Shown here: positions 1,316-62,848 of the stretch, piece by piece | Numbering within the stretch: position 1 is the stretch's first letter | Layout: each line of letters begins with the position of its first letter | Assembly (NCBI RefSeq): GCF_009914755.1 | Contig: NC_060945.1 | Source of the DNA: the human T2T-CHM13v2.0 reference genome, Homo sapiens | Strand: one strand, 5' to 3' | Length of the DNA: 64,000 bases | Translations under genes and position numbers: made by a program | The notes under the pieces: model-generated | The model's input: the letters and a program-made list of their open reading frames with translations, nothing else | What the model was told of the DNA's origin: nothing | Databases searched by the model: none

Positions 1316-4300
1316 ACTTGAAAGAGGGCTCCAGAAAAAGTAGATGCGTATCTGTACAAACAGATCCTACTGATGAAATTCCCACTAAAAAGTCAAAGAA
1401 GCATAAAAAGCACAAAAACAAAAAGAAGAAAAAGAAGAAAGAAAAGGAAAAAAAATATAAAAGACAGCCAGAAGAATCTGAGTCAAAGACGAAATCTCAT
1501 GATGATGGGAACATAGATTTAGAATCTGATTCCTTTTTAAAGTTTGATTCTGAACCTTCAGCTGTGGCGCTGGAGCTTCCTACAAGAGCATTTGGCCCAT
1601 CTGAGACCAATGAATCCCCTGCAGTTGTGCTAGAACCTCCTGTAGTATCAATGGAGGTATCAGAGCCACACATCTTAGAAACTCTGAAGCCAGCTACAAA
1701 AACTGCAGAACTGTCAGTTGTATCTACATCAGTAATCTCAGAGCAGTCAGAGCAGTCTGTGGCAGTAATGCCAGAACCATCCATGACAAAGATTCTGGAT
1801 TCCTTTGCAGCAGCACCAGTGCCTACTACAACACTGGTGTTGAAGTCATCTGAGCCAGTTGTAACAATGTCAGTGGAGTATCAGATGAAGTCTGTGCTGA
1901 AATCTGTGGAGAGCACATCTCCAGAGCCATCAAAGATCATGTTGGTAGAGCCCCCAGTAGCAAAAGTGTTAGAGCCTTCAGAAACCCTTGTGGTATCATC
2001 AGAGACACCTACTGAGGTGTACCCTGAGCCAAGCACATCAACAACAATGGATTTTCCAGAGTCATCTGCAATTGAAGCGCTAAGATTGCCAGAGCAGCCT
2101 GTAGACGTACCATCGGAGATTGCAGATTCATCCATGACAAGACCGCAGGAGTTGCCGGAGCTGCCTAAGACCACAGCGTTGGAGCTGCAGGAGTCGTCGG
2201 TGGCCTCAGCGATGGAGTTGCCGGGGCCACCTGCGACCTCCATGCCGGAGTTGCAGGGGCCCCCTGTGACTCCAGTGCTGGAGTTACCTGGGCCCTCTGC
2301 TACCCCGGTGCCAGAGTTGCCAGGGCCCCTTTCTACCCCAGTGCCTGAGTTGCCAGGGCCCCCTGCGACAGCAGTGCCTGAGTTGCCAGGGCCCTCTGTG
2401 ACACCAGTGCCACAGTTGTCGCAGGAATTGCCAGGGCTTCCAGCACCATCCATGGGGTTGGAGCCACCACAGGAGGTACCAGAGCCACCTGTGATGGCAC
2501 AGGAGTTGCCAGGGCTGCCTTTGGTGACAGCAGCAGTAGAGTTGCCAGAGCAGCCTGCGGTAACAGTAGCAATGGAGTTGACCGAACAACCTGTGACGAC
2601 GACAGAGTTGGAGCAGCCTGTGGGGATGACAACGGTGGAACATCCTGGGCATCCTGAGGTGACAACGGCAACAGGGTTGCTGGGGCAGCCTGAGGCAACG
2701 ATGGTGCTGGAGTTGCCAGGACAGCCAGTGGCAACGACAGCGCTGGAGTTGCCGGGGCAGCCTTCGGTGACTGGGGTGCCAGAGTTGCCAGGGCTGCCTT
2801 CGGCAACTAGGGCACTGGAGTTGTCGGGGCAGCCTGTGGCAACTGGGGCACTAGAGTTGCCTGGGCCGCTCATGGCAGCTGGGGCACTGGAGTTCTCGGG
2901 GCAGTCTGGGGCAGCTGGAGCACTGGAGCTTTTGGGGCAGCCTCTGGCAACAGGGGTGCTGGAGTTGCCAGGGCAGCCTGGGGCGCCAGAGTTGCCTGGG
3001 CAGCCTGTGGCAACTGTGGCGCTGGAGATCTCTGTTCAGTCTGTGGTGACAACATCGGAGCTGTCAACGATGACCGTGTCGCAGTCCCTGGAGGTGCCCT
3101 CGACGACAGCGCTGGAATCCTATAATACGGTAGCACAGGAGCTGCCTACTACATTAGTGGGGGAGACTTCTGTAACAGTAGGAGTGGATCCCTTGATGGC
3201 CCCAGAATCCCATATATTAGCTTCTAACACCATGGAGACCCATATATTAGCATCCAACACCATGGACTCCCAAATGCTAGCGTCCAACACCATGGACTCC
3301 CAGATGCTAGCATCCAACACCATGGACTCCCAGATGTTAGCGTCTAGCACCATGGACTCCCAGATGTTAGCAACTAGCTCCATGGACTCCCAGATGTTAG
3401 CAACTAGCTCCATGGACTCCCAGATGTTAGCAACTAGCACTATGGACTCCCAGATGTTAGCAACCAGTTCCATGGACTCCCAGATGTTAGCAACCAGCTC
3501 CATGGACTCCCAGATGTTAGCAACCAGCTCCATGGACTCCCAGATGTTAGCAACCAGCTCCATGGACTCCCAGATGTTAGCAACCAGCACCATGGATTCT
3601 CAGATGTTAGCAACCAGCACCATGGACTCCCAGATGTTAGCAACTAGCTCAATGGATTCCCAGATGTTAGCATCTGGCACTATGGACTCTCAAATGTTAG
3701 CTTCTGGCACCATGGATGCTCAGATGTTAGCGTCTGGTACCATGGATGCCCAGATGTTAGCGTCTAGTACCCAAGATTCTGCTATGTTGGGTTCAAAATC
3801 TCCTGATCCCTATAGGTTAGCTCAGGATCCTTACAGGTTAGCTCAGGATCCCTATAGGTTGGGCCATGACCCCTATAGATTAGGTCATGATGCTTACAGG
3901 TTAGGACAAGACCCTTATAGATTAGGCCATGATCCCTACAGACTAACTCCTGATCCCTATAGGATGTCACCTAGACCCTACAGGATAGCACCCAGGTCCT
4001 ATAGAATAGCACCCAGGCCATATAGGTTAGCACCTAGACCCCTGATGTTAGCATCTAGACGTTCTATGATGATGTCCTATGCTGCAGAACGTTCCATGAT
4101 GTCATCTTACGAACGCTCTATGATGTCTTATGAGCGGTCTATGATGTCCCCTATGGCTGAACGCTCTATGATGTCAGCCTACGAGCGCTCTATGATGTCA
4201 GCCTACGAGCGCTCTATGATGTCCCCTATGGCTGAGCGCTCTATGATGTCAGCTTATGAACGCTCCATGATGTCAGCTTATGAACGCTCCATGATGTCCC

Positions 4301-7231
4301 CAATGGCTGATCGATCTATGATGTCCATGGGTGCTGACCGGTCTATGATGTCGTCATACTCTGCTGCTGACCGGTCTATGATGTCATCGTACTCTGCAGC
4401 TGACCGATCTATGATGTCATCTTATACTGCTGATCGTTCAATGATGTCTATGGCTGCTGATTCTTACACCGATTCTTACACTGACACATATACAGAGGCA
4501 TATATGGTGCCACCTTTGCCTCCTGAAGAGCCCCCAACAATGCCACCGTTGCCACCTGAGGAGCCACCAATGACACCACCATTGCCTCCTGAGGAACCAC
4601 CAGAGGGTCCAGCATTGCCCACTGAGCAGTCAGCATTAACAGCTGAAAATACTTGGCCTACAGAGGTGCCATCATTACCATCTGAAGAGTCTGTATCGCA
4701 GCCTGAGCCTCCTGTGAGTCAAAGTGAGATTTCGGAGCCTTCAGCAGTGCCTACTGATTATTCAGTGTCAGCATCAGATCCCTCAGTTTTAGTATCAGAG
4801 GCTGCTGTGACTGTTCCAGAACCACCACCAGAGCCAGAATCTTCAATTACGTTAACACCTGTAGAGTCTGCAGTAGTAGCAGAAGAACATGAAGTTGTTC
4901 CAGAGAGACCAGTGACTTGTATGGTATCTGAAACTCCCGCCATGTCAGCTGAACCAACTGTGTTAGCATCAGAGCCTCCTGTTATGTCAGAGACAGCAGA
5001 AACATTTGATTCCATGAGAGCCTCAGGACATGTTGCCTCAGAAGTATCTACATCCTTGTTGGTTCCAGCAGTAACTACTCCAGTGCTGGCAGAGAGCATT
5101 CTGGAGCCGCCAGCCATGGCTGCCCCAGAGTCTTCAGCTATGGCTGTCCTGGAGTCTTCGGCTGTGACCGTCCTGGAGTCTTCGACTGTGACTGTCCTGG
5201 AGTCTTCGACTGTAACTGTCCTGGAGCCTTCGGTTGTGACTGTCCCGGAGCCTCCTGTTGTGGCTGAGCCAGACTATGTTACCATTCCTGTGCCAGTTGT
5301 TTCTGCGCTGGAGCCTTCTGTGCCTGTTCTGGAACCAGCGGTGTCAGTCCTTCAACCTTCTATGATTGTTTCAGAACCATCTGTTTCTGTCCAGGAATCG
5401 ACTGTGACAGTTTCAGAGCCTGCTGTCACAGTCTCAGAGCAGACTCAAGTAATACCAACTGAGGTGGCTATAGAGTCCACACCAATGATACTGGAATCTA
5501 GTATCATGTCATCACATGTTATGAAAGGAATTAATCTATCCTCTGGTGATCAAAATCTTGCTCCAGAGATTGGCATGCAGGAGATTGCATTGCATTCAGG
5601 TGAAGAACCACATGCTGAGGAACACCTGAAAGGTGACTTTTACGAAAGTGAACATGGTATAAATATAGACCTTAATATAAATAATCATTTAATTGCTAAA
5701 GAGATGGAACATAATACAGTGTGTGCTGCTGGTACTAGTCCTGTTGGGGAAATTGGTGAAGAGAAAATTTTGCCCACCAGTGAGACTAAACAGCGCACAG
5801 TATTGGATACCTACCCTGGTGTTAGTGAAGCTGATGCAGGAGAAACTCTATCTTCTACTGGTCCTTTTGCTCTGGAACCTGATGCAACAGGAACTAGTAA
5901 GGGTATTGAATTTACCACAGCATCTACTCTCAGTTTAGTTAATAAATATGATGTTGATTTATCTTTAACTACTCAAGATACTGAACATGACATGGTAATT
6001 TCCACCAGTCCTAGTGGTGGTAGTGAAGCTGACATTGAAGGGCCTTTGCCTGCTAAAGATATTCATCTTGATTTACCATCTAATAATAACCTTGTTAGTA
6101 AGGATACAGAAGAACCATTACCTGTAAAAGAGAGTGACCAGACATTAGCAGCTCTGCTCAGCCCTAAAGAAAGTAGTGGAGGAGAAAAAGAAGTACCTCC
6201 CCCTCCTAAAGAGACACTGCCTGATTCAGGATTTTCTGCCAATATTGAGGATATTAATGAAGCAGATTTAGTGAGACCGTTACTTCCTAAGGACATGGAA
6301 CGTCTTACAAGCCTTAGAGCTGGCATTGAAGGACCTTTACTTGCAAGTGATGTTGGACGTGACAGATCTGCTGCCAGCCCGGTTGTAAGTAGTATGCCAG
6401 AAAGAGCTTCAGAGTCTTCTTCAGAGGAAAAAGATGATTATGAAATTTTTGTAAAAGTTAAGGACACTCACGAAAAAAGCAAGAAAAATAAGAACCGTGA
6501 TAAGGGGGAGAAAGAGAAGAAAAGAGACTCTTCATTAAGATCTCGAAGTAAGCGTTCCAAATCTTCTGAACACAAATCACGCAAGCGTACCAGTGAATCT
6601 CGTTCTAGGGCAAGAAAGAGATCATCTAAGTCCAAGTCTCATCGCTCTCAGACACGTTCACGGTCACGTTCAAGACGCAGGAGGAGAAGCAGCAGATCAA
6701 GATCAAAGTCTAGAGGAAGAAGATCTGTATCAAAAGAGAAGCGCAAAAGATCTCCAAAGCACAGATCCAAGTCTAGGGAAAGAAAAAGAAAAAGATCAAG
6801 CTCCAGGGATAACCGAAAGACAGTTAGAGCTCGAAGTCGAACCCCAAGTCGTCGGAGTCGGAGTCATACTCCAAGTCGTCGACGAAGGTCTAGATCTGTG
6901 GGTAGAAGAAGGAGCTTTAGCATTTCCCCAAGCCGCCGCAGCCGCACCCCCAGCCGCCGCAGCCGCACCCCCAGCCGCCGCAGCCGCACCCCCAGCCGCC
7001 GCAGCCGCACCCCCAGCCGCCGGAGCCGCACCCCTAGCCGTCGGAGCCGCACCCCAAGCCGCCGGAGAAGATCAAGGTCTGTGGTAAGAAGACGAAGCTT
7101 CAGTATCTCACCAGTCAGATTAAGGCGATCAAGAACACCCTTAAGAAGAAGGTTTAGCAGATCTCCCATCCGTCGTAAAAGATCCAGGTCTTCTGAACGA
7201 GGCAGATCACCCAAACGTCTGACAGATTTGG
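1316..7231 (+). CDS. SON: SON exon 3 (5916 nt, phase 1/1): Lys-rich N-terminal part, internal repeats, RS domain
   Basis: tttag|ACTTG acceptor, TTGG|gtgagt donor; 1972-codon open frame with the MDSQMLA, DPYRL, ERSMMS, PPLPPEEPP and PSRRSRT repeats characteristic of SON. Confidence 0.98.
2502..2568 (+). ncRNA. MIR6501: Exonic miRNA hairpin, probably MIR6501
   Basis: agttgccagggctgcctttggt (2504-2525) and ccagagcagcctgcggtaacagt (2545-2567) match my recollection of miR-6501-5p/3p, and the arms are partly complementary; recall only. Confidence 0.6.
3202..3775 (+). repeat. SON: Coding tandem repeat, 30-nt unit (MDSQMLA[S/T]xx)
   Basis: catggactcccagatgttagcaac.. recurs every 30 nt. Confidence 0.95.
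3805..4460 (+). repeat. SON: Coding repeats DPYRL(A/G)x, PRPYRxA and ERSMMS/DRSMMS
   Basis: 21-33 nt periodic repeats visible in both DNA and translation. Confidence 0.9.
6928..7066 (+). repeat. SON: Coding 21-nt tandem repeat (PSRRSRT) in the RS domain
   Basis: cccagccgccgcagccgcacc in near-identical consecutive copies. Confidence 0.95.
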
Positions 7232-8254: not shown

Positions 8255-8568
<314 letters not shown>

Positions 8569-8995
8569 GAGGTGGCACTTGAACTGGGGCTCAAAGAGTG
8601 ATTTAAGGTGTCAGAAGGAGAGTAAGGTCATGATAATTTTGTGAAATGAAATAGGCTTTGGCAGGTTTATATCTTAGAGTGTGTGTAGTAGGGTGATCAT
8701 TATAGTTGTGTAGTAACCTATTGTAATATTCTAATGGGAAGCTCAATATGTGGACTTAATTCCCTGAATGAGGCCACTGCTGAAAAACTTTGAGCCAGTG
8801 GTTTGATCATAGCTGTAACTTAGAGCAGAATATTGATGCCTATAGTTTTTTCCTTTTTTTTTTTCTTTTTTGTTAGATACCCAAGTTCTTCGATGGATCT
8901 AGGATGCCTTTAGTTTTGTTAGTATGTTAGACTTTTGGTAATACAAAATGTACAGTCTTTTAGGAAAACTGCAGCTTGTATTTTTCTTCTTACAG

Positions 8996-9156
8996 ATAAG
9001 GCTCAATTACTTGAAATAGCCAAAGCTAATGCAGCTGCCATGTGTGCTAAGGCTGGTGTCCCTTTACCACCAAACCTAAAGCCTGCACCTCCACCTACTA
9101 TAGAAGAGAAAGTTGCTAAAAAGTCAGGAGGAGCTACTATAGAAGAACTAACTGAG
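8996..9156 (+). CDS. SON: SON exon 4 (DKAQLLEIAK...IEELTE)
   Basis: tacag|ATAAG and GAG|gtaagc; in frame with exon 3. Confidence 0.96.
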
Positions 9157-9221
9157 GTAAGCTAGACAGAATTTGTTTTCATTCTTAAATGGATTATTCC
9201 AGTGATGTTGACTCTGGAGCG

Positions 9222-9714
9222 TGCCAAAACCCGAATTGTGGGCAGAACTGATAATGGCTGGCACCGAGTGGCCAAAACCCGAAATACAGATGTGGCAGCG
9301 GCAGAAGCTCTGTTTAGCAGGCCATTATCCGGGATGGCTAAGCTCCGCTAGCTAAAAGTTACTTCCCATTACTTTTGCTTTCCAGTTTTAGAAGCCAAAC
9401 TGACTGAGGAGTGGGACGGTTCGTTTGAATGGAGGAGGTGTTGAGTGAGCAACACGCAGAAGCTCGCCTACAGTTTCGTTTCCATTCACGACGCGTTCAC
9501 TGATCGCCACGAGTATACTGCATATACGCAAAGACACAGACAATCTTCAGAAATGATCTTTTGCCACCGGAGCTTGGAAATTAATAAGAATAGCTGGCCA
9601 TTGCCTGAAAGGAACTTCTTTCGCATCAACATTTCGGGTTTTGGCTGTTTGGTACCAGCCATTGGCGATAATGGCCGGCCATTATCAGTTCTTCCTGCGG
9701 TTCGGGTTTTGGCA
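9222..9714 (+). other. Long imperfect inverted repeat (arms 9222-9295 and 9621-9714), possibly from an ancient DNA transposon/MITE
   Basis: tgccaaaacccgaa..agaactgataatggc mirrors gccattatcagttct..ttcgggttttggca; gccaaaacccgaa occurs twice per arm; family not identified. Confidence 0.85.
9386..9391 (+). CDS. SON: SON alternative exon 5a, coding part (Phe-stop; SON E-type truncated isoform)
   Basis: ttttgctttccag|TTT TAG in phase 0 after exon 4; matches the recalled 2108-aa isoform E ending in F; 3' end of the exon not determined. Confidence 0.75.
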   Translation, partial: F

Positions 9715-10559
9715 GTAACATATATATTTTAAACACACTTATTTTTGTTTTTAAAAGTTTGATCTTTTCAATTGAGGCTTTTTTGGGGCTTTGTTTTATT
9801 ACTATTTTTTTGGTGTGGGTGGATGGGGGGAGATGCTAAAATATTGCTGCTAGGATCCAGAAATACCACACTGTTTCATATATTGGAACTTGTTATTGGC
9901 TAGCCTTATGCCAGCCTGCCACTGTCAATATATTCTGTTCCCCTTGGTTACAAGCTTAATATACTCTTGTGTTTTTGGCGAAATGAGCTTTTTATCCTAT
10001 TGTAATATTTTCAATTGATAATAGATGTCATTAAATCTACTGCTTGTATAGAGACAGGTGTACCCAAATTTACTCTTGACCTTTTTATAAAGCCAGGTAA
10101 TGGAGTCTGTTCCTTTGCATCTCAGGAAGGAATTGACTTTGCTTTATGTATCAGACCTCATCAATTGCACCCTCTCCATCATGCCTTATTTTCCTAAGTT
10201 CTCCTTAAAGAAACTCAACCCACAAAACATTTATGGAGAGACATGTTGCTATCTAATCCTGTTGCAAATATTTCAGATCTTTTGTTTTGCCATACATCTG
10301 GGAAAATGTAAAGCTTCTGAATCTGTTTCCTCACTTAGATTTATTACAATATGAATTACAACTTTTTTTAAAAAATTAAGGACCTTGTAAACGCTTCTAT
10401 TGCTTATTTACCTAATCCAAGCTCCTTATCCAAAATGCTAAGGACAGTTAGTATTTTGCTGTTTTCGGCCCCATCTTCAGCCTTCTTGTCCCAAGTTTCT
10501 TCTCACCTTTTTACCACCACCTGACTAGGATGACTTCTCCTTTCCCTACCAGTCTTTGT

Positions 10560-10900
10560 TCTTTACTATGAAAATCTGGCTTAGAACTCTTCAAGGAATA
10601 TTCCTTGATTCTCTAACTCTGCCTGACTATTCTCTCTTAAGCCTTTGTTCTTTTAGCACTTATGTACTCAGTTTGTATTATATCAGTTTGCACTTGTTAT
10701 TGTGTTGCTCTGTAAAAGTGTTCAATTATTTCATGTATATGTATTCCTTCTCTTGTACTAGATTGTAAGCTCCTTGAGAGCAGGGACCATGTCTTCTACT
10801 TTTTTTTTTTTTTTTTTTTTTTGTATTCCCCAGACAGTGCCCAGTACAGTGCTCTCTCTGCACATAGTAGGTGCTCAATAAATGTTGTTGACTGACTGAC
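10560..10900. mobile_element. L2-like remnant
   Basis: tgtaagctccttgagagcagggacc...cacatagtaggtgctcaataaatgttgttga resembles the L2 3' end. Confidence 0.6.
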
Positions 10901-11069
10901 CAGCCAGAGTGTGTTTAAATAGTAGTTAATATGCCAAGTTACGTATCTATAACCTATCATGAATCTTGTTTAACTTTGGAAAGTTGCTATTATGTGGTTT
11001 TGATTCTAAGAAATTACATGTTCTACATAAAGCGTAAGATTTATCTTTTGTTTGTTTTTACTTTTAAAG

Positions 11070-11426: not shown

Positions 11427-11615
11427 ATTGCTGCAGCAAAACCAACTCCACCAAAAAGCCAGGTAACATTAACAAAAGAATTCCCTGTATCATCTGGATC
11501 TCAACATCGGAAAAAAGAAGCGGATAGTGTTTATGGAGAATGGGTTCCTGTGGAGAAAAATGGTGAAGAAAACAAAGATGATGATAATGTTTTCAGCAGC
11601 AATTTGCCCTCAGAG
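11427..11615 (+). CDS. SON: SON exon 6 (IAAAKPTPP...NLPSE)
   Basis: tttag|ATTGCT and GAG|gtaagt; 189 nt. Confidence 0.95.
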
Positions 11616-11716
11616 GTAAGTAGGAGGAATATTATGTATTTTTCCTTTTTTATACCTGAATCTGCCATTTCATTGTTATGTTATGTCTGATTTGGATTCT
11701 GTTTCACTCTTCTTAG

Positions 11717-11971
11717 GGCCGGGTTAAACGGCAGGGCCGGGTTAGACGACAGATGAAACAACCCGCAGCTTCTCATTTGACAGTAACTCGATGCAATTCA
11801 CTTTGTGGAACCAAGCCACAAAGTGAAAAGCATCGAATTGCAGAGAACAGTGTTATCACATCCCTACCCAACATTGGGCCCTCCCTGCACTTGTGGGAAG
11901 GTAGTCCAAGGTACAACTATTTAGCTTCCCGATTTGCTTCAAGGCTCTATAGCTCTAGATTTTGGTGGTAG
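11717..11971 (+). CDS. SON: SON alternative terminal exon 7a (SON B-type C-terminus GRVKRQ...SRFWW)
   Basis: tcttag|GGCCGG in phase 0, open to TAG at 11969-11971; AATAAA at 12484. Confidence 0.85.
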   Translation, partial: GRVKRQGRVRRQMKQPAASHLTVTRCNSLCGTKPQSEKHRIAENSVITSLPNIGPSLHLWEGSPRYNYLASRFASRLYSSRFWW

Positions 11972-12483
11972 CAAATTTATCGGGTGGAGGGATTGATCGG
12001 AGAGGGCAGATCCTCAGGTTCAACACAAGAACTGGATTGGAAAAGGTCATTGTAGGTTGATGTGAGCATCTTGGGTACATAGCCCATTGCCCTTAATGAT
12101 GGTTTCTTACTGTTTCTCTGGGTTGTTTGTCAGATAGCCTTTAATTTTAATTATTTTTCCTTCCCTTTGCTACCTTGGCCCTTTTAAATTCTTGTGTTTA
12201 ACCTAATGCTCAGCCTTGGTACTCCATTCCCTTCTCCTTCCCCTCTTTGCTACTATTAAAAGTCGGAGAAGTGGAATTCAAACGTTGAAATTTCCACGGG
12301 GCTATAGTTGTATCTTAATAATGCCAAGTGTCAAAACAACCCCATTAAAATGCCGCCTGATTAAATAATGTGCTGCTAAATATAGTGCACATGAAAACAG
12401 CAAGACTGTATATATATGTAAATATATATATATATCTGTATCTTTGTATGTATCTCTGTATCTGTACCTTTGCTGTATCTTTT

Positions 12484-25145: not shown

Positions 25146-25293
25146 GATCAGTTCTTAAGAGCAGCCCCGGTAACTGGAGGAATGGGAGCCGTTTTGATGA
25201 GAAAAATGGGCTGGAGAGAAGGAGAAGGATTAGGAAAAAACAAAGAAGGCAACAAGGAACCCATCCTAGTTGATTTTAAGACAGACCGAAAAG
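25146..25293 (+). CDS. SON: SON exon 9, G-patch domain
   Basis: gatag|GATCAG and AAAG|gtaac; GAVLMRKMGWREGEGLGKNKEG G-patch motif. Confidence 0.96.
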
Positions 25294-27614: not shown

Positions 27615-27730
27615 GCAAACATCCTGTGTCTGCTTTGATGGAGATCTGTAATAAAAGAAGGTGGCAACCACCTGAATTTCTATTGGTCCATGATAGTGGC
27701 CCTGATCATCGCAAACATTTTCTCTTTAGG
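27615..27730 (+). CDS. SON: SON exon 11, first half of the dsRBD (GKHPVSALMEICNKRRW...)
   Basis: tgcag|GCAAAC and AGG|gtaaat; HPVSALxE is the dsRBD alpha1 motif. Confidence 0.95.
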
Positions 27731-34485: not shown

Positions 34486-35112
<627 letters not shown>

Positions 35113-35258
35113 GATTAAATAATTGTGGGGGAGGGAAAAAAAGCCAGAAATAAAGAAATAATATATTTCTTAATGTTGCTAATCAACTGGTAAAAGGCAT
35201 TTTAAATTTAAATAGCTTTTAGGCCAAAATAGGTTTACTATATAGTATAGTATTCTCA

Positions 35259-35486
<228 letters not shown>

Positions 35487-35786
35487 TTATTAAACATTTA
35501 ATGCAATGTTTATAATTCTGAATAATTCAGTTTGATACCTGGTTTAAAACACAACACAAATATTTTAGATAATGGTTTTAATTTTTGTGGTTACGTATGA
35601 CTTAGCTTTAAAGGACTGAAATTGGTTATGAGGACTCGCTGATGACTTCTCAATACTTTAACAAATAGTGTATACCACTTAAACACTTATTTTTTCTTTA
35701 AACAAAACTTAATTGAGAATTGCCTGCTGACTTTCTCTGAGCTGCTGCTAAAAAAGGAAGCAGAGACTGACAAGAAGTAGCATTAA

Positions 35787-36134
<348 letters not shown>

Positions 36135-43462: not shown

Positions 43463-44292
43463 CAGTCATCCCTCACGCATCCATGAGGGATTGGTTCCAG
43501 GACCCCCATGAAGACCAAAATCTCCAGATACTCAAGTCCCTTATAGAAAATAGTGCAGCAGCTTGGGAAACAAGGCTCTCTACAAAAAAATTAAAAATTA
43601 GCCAGGCATGGTGGCATGTGCCTGTTGCCCCAGCTACTGGGGAGGCTGAGGCAGGAGGATCCCTTGAGCACATGGGTTTGAGGTTACAGTGAGCTGGAAT
43701 GAGCACTGCACTCCAGCCAGGGCAACAGAGCAATACCCTGTCTCAAAAGAAAAAAAAAAAGAAAGAAAAAAAAAATGGCCTAGTATTTGCATATAACCGA
43801 GGCACATCTCCATTATACATTAAGTCATCTCTATATTACTTATAATACCTAATGCAATGTAAATACTATGTAGATAGTGGTTATGCTATTTTTTTTGTTT
43901 TTTTTATTGTCGTATTATTACTTTTTCAGAGCTTTTTTTTTTTTTTTTTGAGACAGGGGCCCCCTCTGTGGCCCAGGCTAGAGTGCAGTGGCATGATCAT
44001 GGCTCACTGCAGCCTCAACCTCTCAGGCTCTAGTGATCCTCAGCCTCCCAAGTAGCTGGGACCACAGCAATTCACCGCCACACCAGGTTAATTTATTTTT
44101 ATTTTTGTATAGACAGGGTCTCCCTATGTTGCCCGGGCTGGTCTCAAACTCCTGAGATGAAGCCATCCTCCTGCCTCAGCCTCCCAAAGTGCTGGGATTA
44201 CAGGCATGAGCCACTGCCCCCAGCCTCCAAATATTTTTGATCCTTGATTGGTTGAATCCCTGGATGTGGAACCCTCAGATACAGGGGGCTGA
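43463..44292. mobile_element. MER2-like Tigger element interrupted by two oppositely oriented Alus (~43560-43775 plus, ~43934-44225 minus)
   Basis: cagtcatccctc..ggattggttccaggacccc start and gatacagggggctg end. Confidence 0.75.
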
Positions 44293-44557
44293 TCGTATGT
44301 CACTAAGAGAATCAGAAAATGATGTAAAAATCAAAGAAAAAATCTATCTTGCTAATTTAATTGAAATTATAATACTAAGATCAAGATTCTATGTAATTGC
44401 CCGTACTTCTGAATTATTTATGGCCCAGAATGACACAGTTGGAAGGAGATGTCTCTGTTAAATCACAAGCAGCAACTTAGCTTGTATGAACTGAATGAGG
44501 AGGGTTTGCACAAGTGAGGACTACTGTATGATTCAGGACTTTAGAAAATGCAAATTA

Positions 44558-45216
<659 letters not shown>

Positions 45217-45488
45217 CTAAAGAATATAAATTTACTAATTCACATCCCTGCAAGTTCCCTTCCTACTGCTGTTAATAAAATTCTTACCTGTGTGCAAAGC
45301 ATGTATTTCTGATTCTGGAAAATGTACAGTATTTCATATACACATGTCATGTTTCAACTTGGTCCAAGGATTTGTCAAATAGGTTAAAATTGCCTTCTCA
45401 TCGGGAGAGGTGGTTTGAGAGAATTAAGTTATATACTATAAGCAGAGCAGTCTAGTTTCCAACATGTAAGATTCAAAACTAATAGCTA

Positions 45489-46597
<1,109 letters not shown>

Positions 46598-47520
46598 TAC
46601 ATAACTACCTTAAAGCTCCGAATAAAGACTGTCATTGCTCCTGGAGGGAACTGGCCTTTATACATATCACACATATATGACTAGACACATTTAAGAAAAG
46701 TAACGTATGATATTCAGTAGAGAGAAGTGTAAGGCTATGTAAATCTTTCTTCAGACACACACATATGCTCTATCAAGTAATGATAACTTTTTTTTTATCC
46801 AATACATTAAAACTTTTACCAAGTGCTGCTGCCTCTAAGCCAGTCATTTTAGAAATAAAAGGAATTCTTAAGTTGACCCTACTCTAAAGAGGTTTGCACC
46901 TTTCTTTTTGAAATTGTTTGTATATTCCAAACTTTTTATTATTTTTACTCAACTGGAATGATTTGGCTTCAATCACACCAGACTTATCTCTGAATGACTT
47001 TTGTTTCAAAAAGTCAAACCTATCTTCATTTGATAAAGATTTCCTAGCATTGATATTTATAAAACACTCCACAAACTCTTTAATTTAGAAAAGTATTCTG
47101 AAATGTTTCTGTGCAATGGCACCATCATAGGAGTAAGTGTGCAACCTTTCAAGGTGATGTGTGCTTTCCTTAATGTGAGGTTAAAAACAAAATCTTCCAG
47201 GTATCTTAGGGCTCATCTCTGTTCAGAAAGGAGAGAGACTGCCTGAGTGTGATTCTTGCTCCGCCACTTGCTGCGTCCTTGAGTCTGTATCAACATCTCT
47301 GTGCTTCTGTTTCTTCACCTGTGAAATGGGGATGATAACAGTACTTACATCTCAAAAGGCTGTTTTAATGTTTAAATGAATACTTGCAAGGCACTTGGAA
47401 TACTGTTTGGAATACTTAAGGAAACTTAACTGCTATTATTATTTCCTATTATCGTAATGAAAGAACTTAGTACAGTACAAAGTTCAAGCCAGAAACTCAA
47501 TCAGTCGATAAAAAGGATAT

Positions 47521-48146: not shown

Positions 48147-49703
<1,557 letters not shown>

Positions 49704-51396: not shown

Positions 51397-53932
<2,536 letters not shown>

Positions 53933-57297: not shown

Positions 57298-62848
<5,551 letters not shown>

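What the first reader, a model, noticed from the sequence alone, without database searches (positions are those of the whole stretch)
9222..9714. Long-range RNA helix with sense-strand G-U wobbles that loops out the SON exon 5a acceptor
Seen: 9222-9262 pairs with 9714-9674 over 41 positions (35 Watson-Crick, 5 G-U, 1 mismatch). The helix continues with 9263-9295 against 9653-9621, adding 6 more G-U pairs and one 3x3 internal loop. Most non-Watson-Crick positions are G-U on the SON sense RNA and would be A-C mismatches on the antisense strand; neutral decay of a DNA palindrome should give both kinds. The segment also keeps many CpGs in an otherwise CpG-poor intron. The helix starts about 65 nt after the exon 4 donor, and its loop contains the ccag|TTTTAG acceptor and stop of the truncating exon 5a. 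Inference: an exapted ancient palindromic element acting as an RNA-structure switch for SON truncation or NMD, possibly read by a dsRNA-binding protein. SON itself has a dsRBD, which would close an autoregulatory loop.
Basis: partly seen in the sequence, partly recalled or inferred. Interest (0 to 1): 0.85.

Follow-up and report, generated by a model that had tools for sequence, protein, structure and literature searches.

The report
Conserved SON intron–3'UTR RNA duplex
A roughly 74-base-pair RNA helix in the SON pre-mRNA encloses the splice acceptor of the truncating exon 5a; it is real and looks selected, but a 2025 preprint already described it and proposed the same self-regulation idea.

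Summary
9222-9262 pairs with 9714-9674 (35 WC, 5 G-U, 1 mismatch). 9263-9295 pairs with 9653-9621 (24 WC, 6 G-U, 3x3 loop). The fold is far beyond chance (z -9.3, 0 of 100 shuffles). The sense strand is about 16 kcal/mol more stable than the antisense.

The 493-nt element is a sharp CpG island: o/e 0.84 against 0.08-0.20 in the flanks. It is single-copy in the genome and not repeat-masked. It encloses the E5a branch region, acceptor and stop codon.

It is not new. [quoted passage not shown] It reports brain A-to-I editing, conservation in 176 vertebrates and one covarying pair, and it proposes autoregulation through SON's dsRBD.

There are no other copies and no target-site duplication, and E5a is a terminal exon with its own AATAAA. 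In my folding the helix does not change acceptor accessibility, so any effect would come from looping out, not masking. Function is untested.

The parts
8996..9156 (+). SON exon 4. Its donor (GAG|GTAAGC) lies 65 nt upstream of the helix.
   Evidence: RefSeq exons; sequence
9222..9262 (+). Left arm of outer helix 1 (intronic). It contains 13-mer copy 1 (9223-9235) and a GATAATGGCTGGC module (9250-9262).
   Evidence: 35 WC/5 GU/1 mismatch with 9674-9714; pair probability 0.93-0.99; motifs
9263..9295 (+). Left arm of helix 2 (intronic). It contains 13-mer copy 2 (9271-9283).
   Evidence: 24 WC/6 GU/3x3 loop with 9621-9653; pair probability 0.95 for 9263-9285 x 9631-9653
9339..9347 (+). Left strand of a 9-bp inner helix (TAAGCTCCG), immediately 5' of the candidate branch region.
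   Evidence: Pairs with 9568-9576, probability 0.94; part of inverted repeat I3
9348..9385 (+). Acceptor region of E5a: candidate branch region (GCTAAAAG, my reading of the sequence, not tested), polypyrimidine tract and the CAG acceptor.
   Evidence: Sequence; predicted local hairpins 9350-9359 x 9371-9379 and 9383-9388 x 9397-9402
9386..10906 (+). Alternative terminal exon E5a (SON E isoform, NM_001291411.2). The coding part is only 9386-9391 (Phe, stop). AATAAA lies at 10877.
   Evidence: RefSeq; poly(A) signals; the E5a / SON E naming is from PMC8455679 passages
9568..9576 (+). Right strand of the 9-bp inner helix (CGGAGCTTG), in the E5a 3'UTR.
9621..9653 (+). Right arm of helix 2 (E5a 3'UTR). 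It contains 13-mer copy 3 on the minus strand (9633-9645).
9654..9673 (+). 20-nt asymmetric bulge between the two helices, on the right arm only. It carries an extra GATAATGGCC module, which overlaps a perfect palindrome with 9674-9686.
   Evidence: Mean unpaired probability 0.51; motif copies at 9667-9679 (+) and 9674-9686 (-)
9674..9714 (+). Right arm of outer helix 1 (E5a 3'UTR). It contains 13-mer copy 4 on the minus strand (9701-9713).

Best explanation
This is a deeply conserved, sense-strand, long-range duplex of the SON pre-mRNA. Intron 4 (9222-9295) pairs with the start of the 3'UTR of the alternative terminal exon E5a (9621-9714). The result is two coaxial helices, 68 bp in the minimum-free-energy fold, plus a 9-bp inner helix (9339-9347 x 9568-9576).

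The duplex can exist only in unspliced RNA. It forms once the right arm has been transcribed, about 330 nt after the E5a acceptor. It encloses the E5a branch region, polypyrimidine tract, AG and stop codon in a 325-nt loop. It also brings the exon 4 donor to within about 65 nt of the sequence 3' of the right arm.

The most likely role is to set the ratio between two splicing outcomes. One is splicing to E5a, which gives truncated SON E without the G-patch and dsRBD. The other is splicing to exon 5, which gives full-length SON. I infer that the helix acts by looping the early, strong E5a acceptor out of play, and that dsRNA-binding or dsRNA-modifying proteins tune this. ADAR is the one with reported evidence.

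Shown here: the pairing, its stability, the strand bias, CpG retention, single-copy status and the geometry relative to the splice sites.
Taken from the preprint's main text: vertebrate conservation, one covarying pair, editing in brain, and TIA1/KHSRP eCLIP overlap.
Inferred only: the effect on E5a use, its direction, and any reading by SON's own dsRBD.
For: - Pair counts and independent detection of the arms.
- Fold z -9.32, with 0 of 100 shuffles as stable.
- Pair probabilities of 0.93-0.99 for the outer helices and 0.94 for the inner one.
- Blocking the left arm costs 70.6 kcal/mol (-228.6 to -158.0).
- Sense is more stable than antisense: -210.3 vs -194.3 for the whole element and -114.2 vs -98.7 for the arms alone.
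- 11 G-U against 2 A-C type positions.
- CpG o/e is 0.84 inside and 0.08-0.20 outside, with edges that coincide with the arms.
- The element is not a repeat.
- The acceptor and stop codon lie inside the loop; the G-patch and dsRBD exons lie downstream.
- It is the only intron-to-3'UTR inverted repeat of at least 24 nt near either short-isoform terminal exon.
- The preprint reports conservation (phastCons >= 0.9, 176 vertebrate species), covariation in 'helix three' and three edited adenosines in 'helix one'.
Against: - No experiment links the helix to E5a use.
- In the thermodynamic model the unpaired probabilities of the branch region, polypyrimidine tract and AG are 0.19/0.53/0.14 with the helix. 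With the left arm blocked they are 0.17/0.54/0.18. The helix therefore does not occlude the acceptor, and the looping-out effect is an assumption.
- CpG retention is as high in the loop as in the arms (o/e 0.97 for 9386-9620). The loop alone is not unusually structured: z -1.24 sense and -1.58 antisense. Much of the constraint therefore acts on sequence and is not explained by the helix.
- The G-U bias is only moderately significant (P 0.011-0.058).
- The preprint reports a single covarying pair.
- The preprint's '180 bp' does not match my count of 68 outer plus 9 inner pairs. Its coordinates are in supplements I could not open, so identity with this element is inferred.
- I could not check conservation myself, because no vertebrate genomes are available in these tools.
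Confidence: 0.6

Rival explanations
1. The main function lies in the mature SON E mRNA or in dsRNA biology, not in splice choice. On one version, the right arm and loop are a 3'UTR element of SON E bound by factors such as TIA1 or KHSRP. The intronic left arm would be a conserved partner that masks it, or that guides ADAR editing of it before splicing, as the intronic complementary sequences do for recoding sites. On another version, the duplex mainly serves nuclear retention or turnover of unspliced SON RNA.
For: - After E5a splicing only the right arm remains, and it is predicted to refold locally, for example 9593-9600 x 9672-9679 with probability 0.98.
- The loop, which is 3'UTR sequence, keeps CpGs as strongly as the arms.
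- The preprint reports editing in brain and TIA1/KHSRP eCLIP overlap.
- The helix does not change acceptor accessibility.
Against: - The geometry is what a splice-choice element would need: the left arm lies 65 nt from the donor and the acceptor is enclosed.
- I could not see which arm carries the edited sites, because the supplements are closed.
- No data show a function for the SON E 3'UTR.
Confidence: 0.2
2. It is a DNA-level conserved non-coding element, such as a germline-unmethylated cluster of palindromic binding sites for a dimeric DNA-binding protein. The RNA helix would then be a by-product of the palindromic site arrangement.
For: - There are four perfect copies of GCCAAAACCCGAA, two per arm in mirror orientation. 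With up to 2 mismatches allowed, 1.43 matches are expected in the window.
- There are five copies of a GATAATGGCCGGC-like module.
- CpG o/e is near 1 across the loop as well as the arms.
- Register-shifted RNA pairings of the repeats are 45-46 kcal/mol worse than the in-register fold. RNA alternative pairing therefore does not explain why all four copies are identical.
Against: - A DNA-level constraint is strand-blind, so it does not predict a sense-strand G-U excess (11 vs 2) or the 15.5-16 kcal/mol advantage of the sense strand.
- RefSeq lists no enhancer, silencer or other functional element between 7000 and 13000.
- A-to-I editing and a covarying pair, reported in the preprint, need the RNA duplex.
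Confidence: 0.1
3. It is a functionless relic of a palindromic or foldback DNA transposon, or of an inverted duplication, decaying neutrally in the intron. E5a would have arisen inside it by chance.
For: - It has a terminal inverted repeat-like architecture with subterminal direct repeats.
- Weak palindromy runs through nearly the whole element.
- Its compositional boundaries are sharp.
Against: - It is single-copy. BLAST of 531 nt finds only itself. The arm pattern gives 25 matches against 22 for the control, and only the two arms match at 2 mismatches or fewer.
- It is 0% masked, while the 14 larger inverted repeats I checked are 77-100% masked.
- The flanks show no target-site duplication.
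- Keeping 24 CpGs at o/e 0.84 in a gene body whose flanks are at 0.08-0.20 is incompatible with long neutral decay.
- The wobbles are strand-biased.
- The preprint reports conservation in 176 vertebrate species.
Confidence: 0.03
4. It is a precursor of small RNAs: a long hairpin processed by Drosha or Dicer.
For: It is a long, near-perfect duplex.
Against: - No Rfam family matches at E <= 1 in 8900-11000.
- The 325-nt loop and 74-bp interrupted stem are unlike pre-miRNAs.
- RefSeq annotates only MIR6501 in the window, elsewhere in exon 3.
Confidence: 0.02

Closest known systems
The 'conserved dsRNA in SON' of the dsRNAscan preprint (bioRxiv 10.1101/2025.01.24.634786, also PMC11838218). I read sections 12 and 24 and passages of the discussion.
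   Same: [quoted passage not shown] The preprint proposes that full-length SON or other RNA-binding proteins bind it and modulate splicing of the short isoform. By elimination it is this element.
   Different: - The main text gives no coordinates, and its '180 bp' does not match my 68 + 9 predicted pairs.
- The terms 'G-U' and 'transposable' each occur 0 times in the main text.
- I saw nothing there on the wobble strand bias, CpG retention, the four identical 13-mers or the unchanged acceptor accessibility.
Long-range pre-mRNA structures that loop out exons or splice sites, such as the catalogue of pairs of conserved complementary regions (PMC8052449; search listing and start of abstract only).
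   Same: Conserved complementary arms hundreds of nucleotides apart enclose a splice site in an alternatively processed region.
   Different: - This one encloses only the acceptor of a terminal exon, not a whole cassette exon.
- It is much longer and more stable than typical conserved pairs: the preprint gives -42 kcal/mol as the mean for conserved dsRNAs, against about -114 for these arms.
- The word SON occurs 0 times in that paper's main text.
Exon-intron duplexes that guide ADAR to conserved sites (GRIA2 Q/R type; mentioned).
   Same: It is a conserved duplex between exon and intron that exists only before splicing, and it is reported to be edited in brain.
   Different: No codon is recoded here, because the arms are intron and 3'UTR. 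The known conserved recoding sites of SON are in exon 3, a different place.
Ultraconserved alternative exons of splicing regulators that give unproductive or truncated isoforms (recalled from the 2007 literature on SR protein genes; not checked in any call).
   Same: It is a highly conserved alternative exon region inside a splicing-factor gene, and the alternative product lacks the functional C-terminal domains. Homeostatic feedback is a plausible logic.
   Different: E5a is a terminal exon with its own poly(A) signal, not an NMD-triggering cassette. Its product, SON E, is described as an expressed isoform.
MITE or foldback-type DNA transposons.
   Same: It has terminal inverted repeats with subterminal direct repeats and sharp edges.
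   Different: It is single-copy, unmasked and has no target-site duplication.

Membership tests
Conserved long-range pre-mRNA duplex regulating splice-site choice | Two complementary arms on the transcribed strand that are stable beyond chance | tested here: met
   59 WC + 11 G-U of 74 positions; z -9.32; pair probabilities 0.93-0.99
Conserved long-range pre-mRNA duplex regulating splice-site choice | The duplex encloses or abuts a regulated splice site | tested here: met
   The E5a acceptor at 9385|9386 lies inside the loop, and the exon 4 donor lies 65 nt 5' of the helix
Conserved long-range pre-mRNA duplex regulating splice-site choice | Arms conserved across species, with compensatory substitutions | not testable with these tools
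   No vertebrate genomes are available here. The preprint's main text reports 176 vertebrate species and one significant covarying pair in 'helix three'. CpG retention and the G-U bias are indirect support from the human sequence.
Conserved long-range pre-mRNA duplex regulating splice-site choice | Disrupting the pairing changes splicing and compensatory changes restore it | not tested
   This needs a bench experiment. None was found in print.
ADAR substrate dsRNA | A duplex long enough for ADAR binding | tested here: met
   Uninterrupted predicted runs of 21, 19 and 23 bp. That such lengths suffice is general knowledge of ADAR substrates, recalled and not from a call.
ADAR substrate dsRNA | A-to-I sites observed in the arms | not testable with these tools
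   The preprint cites three adenosines in the first helix, highly edited in brain, from REDIportal. The positions are in a closed supplement.
DNA transposon relic (MITE/foldback) | Terminal inverted repeats | tested here: met
   41-nt arms at 85% complementarity
DNA transposon relic (MITE/foldback) | Other copies of the family in the genome | tested here: not met
   BLAST of 531 nt against the whole T2T genome finds only itself. The arm pattern with up to 3 mismatches gives 25 hits against 22 for the control, and only the two arms match at 2 or fewer. The tool states that its counts are lower bounds.
DNA transposon relic (MITE/foldback) | Target-site duplication flanking the inverted repeats | tested here: not met
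   The flanks, read by eye, are ...CTGGAGCG before 9222 and GTAACATA... after 9714, with no shared short direct repeat
DNA transposon relic (MITE/foldback) | Recognised by repeat masking | tested here: not met
   0% of either arm is masked. The nearest masked stretch is 8266-8577. Only masked stretches of 100 nt or more are listed, without family names.
NMD-triggering poison exon | A stop codon more than about 50 nt upstream of a downstream exon junction | tested here: not met
   In NM_001291411.2, E5a is the last exon. The stop is at 9389-9391, the exon ends at 10906 and AATAAA is at 10877.
Autoregulatory target of SON's dsRBD | The regulated isoform lacks the domain that reads the element | tested here: met
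   The G-patch is in exon 25146-25293 (E 2.2e-16). The dsRBD N-terminal half is in exon 27615-27730: DND1_DSRM E 3.4e-9; dsrm 22.4 bits, just under the cut-off of 23. Both exons are downstream of E5a.
Autoregulatory target of SON's dsRBD | SON binds the duplex and changes E5a use | not tested
No data were found.

The most novel reading that the evidence does not exclude
The duplex would be more than a generic dsRNA. It would be a sequence-specific sensor that SON, or a partner, reads to hold its own full-length : truncated ratio constant.

Two observations fit this. All four copies of the 13-mer GCCAAAACCCGAA are identical, and the loop keeps its CpGs even though it is not unusually structured. 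Both suggest a reader that recognises bases as well as helix shape.

The second short-isoform terminal exon, E7a, also starts with a CpG-rich tandem repeat and a very stable hairpin. The two truncating exits of the gene might therefore be governed by a common RNA-structure logic.

An origin from a domesticated foldback element early in vertebrate history is not excluded, but nothing here supports it.
Probability: 0.12. Interest if true: 0.7.

Novelty: already known. Interest (0 to 1): 0.35.

Why it matters
SON is the core scaffold of nuclear speckles, and loss of one copy causes ZTTK syndrome. Its short isoforms SON E and SON B are reported as upregulated in leukaemia.

A conserved RNA helix that decides between full-length and truncated SON would be a dosage-control point for an essential splicing cofactor. 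It would also be an obvious antisense-oligonucleotide target.

The structure, its conservation, its editing and the autoregulation hypothesis are already in a 2025 preprint, so this scan adds only details:
- the sense-strand wobble bias;
- a CpG-retention boundary that coincides with the arms;
- single-copy status;
- the repeated 13-mer architecture;
- the finding that the helix does not alter predicted acceptor accessibility.

The functional question is still open and can be tested directly.

Tried and rejected
1. Transposon origin.
- BLAST of the element against the whole genome found only itself and its own inverted arms.
- A first arm pattern was mis-spaced: I used 15 N where the sequence has 14. 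It gave 97 matches against 206 for the control and missed the element itself, so it is not a valid test.
- The corrected pattern gave 25 matches against 22 for the control, and only the two arms matched at 2 mismatches or fewer.
- One 3-mismatch hit, at chr6:44363254, shares about 34 nt with the right arm. It is isolated and intergenic, has no inverted partner and shows no CpG retention. I treat it as chance.

2. Known RNA family. Rfam gave 0 matches at E <= 1 in 8900-11000.

3. Multi-state switch through register-shifted pairing of the repeated 13-mers. Forced shifted pairings are 45.5 and 46.5 kcal/mol less stable than the in-register fold. They could only be transient kinetic intermediates.

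4. Masking of the acceptor by the helix. Rejected, because unpaired probabilities do not change.

5. A structured loop domain. Rejected as unusual: z -1.24 sense and -1.58 antisense.

6. A shared motif between the E5a right arm and the start of E7a (CGGGTT..GGCAG). The spacing differs, and the pattern search found only the two E7a copies plus one unrelated hit. Not pursued.

7. Literature.
- Nothing on E5a regulation or on this helix was found beyond the preprint.
- The 2016 paper on SON isoforms (PMC4799497) is not held.
- The conserved SON editing sites are in exon 3, not here.

8. Cross-species alignment and covariation could not be done. The tools hold no vertebrate genome other than this one. 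I did not scan microbial or viral collections for the element, because any hit would be host contamination.
Full report
**The observation**

- 9222-9262 against 9714-9674 gives 35 Watson-Crick pairs, 5 G-U and 1 mismatch over 41 positions.
- 9263-9295 against 9653-9621 gives 24 Watson-Crick pairs, 6 G-U and a 3x3 internal loop over 33 positions.
- The repeat finder finds the same arms independently: I1 is 41 nt at 85% and I2 is 40 nt at 80%.
- Over all 74 positions there are 59 WC, 11 G-U, 2 A-C type and 2 transversion-type mismatches.

The helix starts 65 nt after the exon 4 donor. The loop contains CCAG|TTTTAG, which is the E5a acceptor followed by one Phe codon and the stop.

**Is it more than chance?**

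- RNAfold of 9205-9730 on the sense strand gives -210.3 kcal/mol. Dinucleotide shuffles give -153.2 +/- 6.1, so z is -9.32 and 0 of 100 shuffles fold as well.
- The left half aligned to the reverse complement of the right half scores 86. Two hundred shuffles give 20.4 +/- 3.2, with a maximum of 34. The alignment runs weakly through almost the whole element, so the element is an imperfect palindrome with much better preserved ends.
- In a fold of 9140-9800 the outer helices have mean pair probabilities of 0.99 (9222-9242 x 9694-9714), 0.93 (9244-9262 x 9674-9692) and 0.95 (9263-9285 x 9631-9653). A 9-bp inner helix, 9339-9347 x 9568-9576, has 0.94.
- Forbidding the left arm from pairing costs 70.6 kcal/mol.

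**RNA or DNA, and which strand?**

- The antisense strand folds 16 kcal/mol less well: -194.3, z -8.40. For the arms alone the figures are -114.2 sense and -98.7 antisense.
- Of the 13 transition-type non-Watson-Crick positions, 11 are G-U on the sense strand and 2 are A-C or C-A. Both of the latter lie in the 3x3 loop.
- The binomial tail is 0.011 at p = 0.5. It rises to 0.027 and 0.058 if a sense-strand mutation bias of 0.55 or 0.60 is allowed.

**Composition**

- The element has 24 CpGs, with o/e 0.84 and GC 48%.
- The rest of E5a has o/e 0.08, intron 3 has 0.20 and the next long intron has 0.19.
- The island's edges coincide with the ends of the arms.
- Retention is at least as strong in the loop as in the arms: o/e 0.97 for 9386-9620. 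Yet the loop alone is not unusually structured, with z -1.24 sense and -1.58 antisense.
- The constraint therefore covers more than the helix.

**Is it a repeat?**

- BLAST of 531 nt against the whole T2T genome returns only the locus itself and its own inverted arms.
- A pattern built from the arm (13-mer, 14 N, GATAATGG, up to 3 mismatches) gives 25 matches against 22 for the reversed control. Only the two arms match at 2 mismatches or fewer.
- An earlier pattern had the wrong spacing and is void.
- The element is 0% soft-masked. The 14 larger inverted repeats I checked, out of the 25 shown and 46 found within 1 kb in the window, are 77-100% masked.
- The flanks show no target-site duplication.
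- A 34-nt resemblance at chr6:44363254 is isolated and is probably chance.
- The 'exapted palindromic element' idea therefore has architectural resemblance only. That resemblance includes four perfect copies of GCCAAAACCCGAA, two per arm in mirror orientation, and five copies of a GATAATGGCCGGC-like module.

**Prior art**

A full-text search led to the dsRNAscan preprint (bioRxiv 10.1101/2025.01.24.634786, also PMC11838218). I read sections 12 and 24 and passages of the discussion. [quoted passage not shown] It describes:
- three adenosines in the first helix that are highly edited in brain (REDIportal);
- significant covariation in helix three;
- TIA1 and KHSRP eCLIP overlap.

Its discussion notes that the short isoform lacks the dsRBD. 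[quoted passage not shown]

Between 7200 and 19100, a span that covers both short-isoform terminal exons, the only intron-to-3'UTR inverted repeat of at least 24 nt is this one. I therefore infer that it is the same object. Its '180 bp' does not match my count of 68 outer plus 9 inner predicted pairs, and I cannot resolve that discrepancy.

The terms 'G-U' and 'transposable' each occur 0 times in the preprint's main text. No other paper on this helix or on E5a regulation turned up.

**Gene context**

- E5a (9386-10906) is the last exon of NM_001291411.2, with AATAAA at 10877.
- A glioblastoma paper names the alternative exons E5a and E7a and the short isoforms SON E and SON B (passages).
- The stop codon sits in a terminal exon, so the classical NMD rule does not apply. 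The outcome is truncation.
- The G-patch is in exon 25146-25293 (E 2.2e-16). The N-terminal half of the dsRBD is in exon 27615-27730 (DND1_DSRM, E 3.4e-9). Both exons are downstream of E5a, so SON E lacks both domains.

**Mechanism**

- The E5a acceptor has a long polypyrimidine tract and is transcribed about 1.7 kb before the exon 5 acceptor. Something must hold it back for full-length SON to be made.
- The helix forms once the right arm, about 330 nt past the acceptor, has been transcribed. It puts the acceptor into a closed 325-nt loop.
- My folding shows that the helix does not mask the acceptor. Unpaired probabilities for the branch region, polypyrimidine tract and AG are 0.19/0.53/0.14 with the helix and 0.17/0.54/0.18 without it. 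Any effect must therefore be topological (looping out, or bringing the exon 4 donor toward downstream sequence) or go through proteins bound to the duplex.
- Register-shifted pairings of the repeated 13-mers are 45-46 kcal/mol worse. An equilibrium switch between registers is therefore unlikely.
- I rate the reality of the duplex as high, a role in the choice between E5a and exon 5 at about even odds, and reading by SON's own dsRBD as a minority possibility.

**Verdict**

The finding is biologically interesting but already described in print, along with the same hypothesis.
- the strand-bias statistics;
- the CpG boundary;
- single-copy status;
- the repeated-motif architecture;
- the correction that E5a is a terminal exon and not an NMD exon;
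- the result that the helix does not change predicted acceptor accessibility.

Conservation, covariation and editing rest on the preprint's main text alone. I could not verify them here.

Noticed in passing
window 11783-11841 (+), inside the coding part of terminal exon E7a (SON B isoform): A very stable local hairpin of 4 + 7 + 12 bp with a 7-nt loop. It folds at -32.3 kcal/mol, against -11.3 +/- 2.8 for shuffles (z -7.44, 0 of 200 as good). Rfam has no match over it at E <= 1. Both truncating terminal exons of SON therefore carry strong RNA structure near their starts.
   Followed up: partly
window 11715-11750 (+), across the E7a acceptor (exon starts at 11717): An 18-nt tandem direct repeat, AGGGCCGGGTTAAACGGC / AGGGCCGGGTTAGACGAC, at 89% identity. 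The area is CpG-rich: o/e 0.59-0.70 in the 200-nt windows starting at 11600 and 11700, against about 0.2 in the introns. It may be another constrained element.
   Followed up: no
window exon 3 (1316-7231): The literature lists conserved A-to-I sites in SON coding sequence: hg19 chr21:34922801 T422A and chr21:34923319 (synonymous) in one paper, and an R571G site conserved in pig and bowhead whale in another (passages). These lie in exon 3 and are separate from the intron 4 / E5a duplex. I did not look for their pairing partners.
   Followed up: no
G000 chr6:44363254-44363288 (locus L016, about 754-786): An isolated stretch of about 34 nt resembles the right arm (CCATTATCAGTTC..CCTGC..TTCGGGTTTT). 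It is intergenic, between two lncRNA genes, with no inverted partner within 1.5 kb and no CpG retention. It is probably chance.
   Followed up: yes
window 12205-12330 (+), E7a 3'UTR: A sub-threshold Rfam match to SMAD5-AS1_2 (RF02174): 25.3 bits against a gathering score of 50, E 0.0022, over the full model length. It is most likely a chance or low-complexity match.
   Followed up: no
window 34800-36000, 43600-46600, 48150-48950, 52600-53900 and 57400-58700 (DONSON and CRYZL1 introns): Many inverted repeat pairs of 60-180 nt lie within 1 kb of each other. All 14 that I checked fall in masked repeats. They are the usual repeat-derived dsRNA sources, in contrast to the unmasked SON element.
   Followed up: partly
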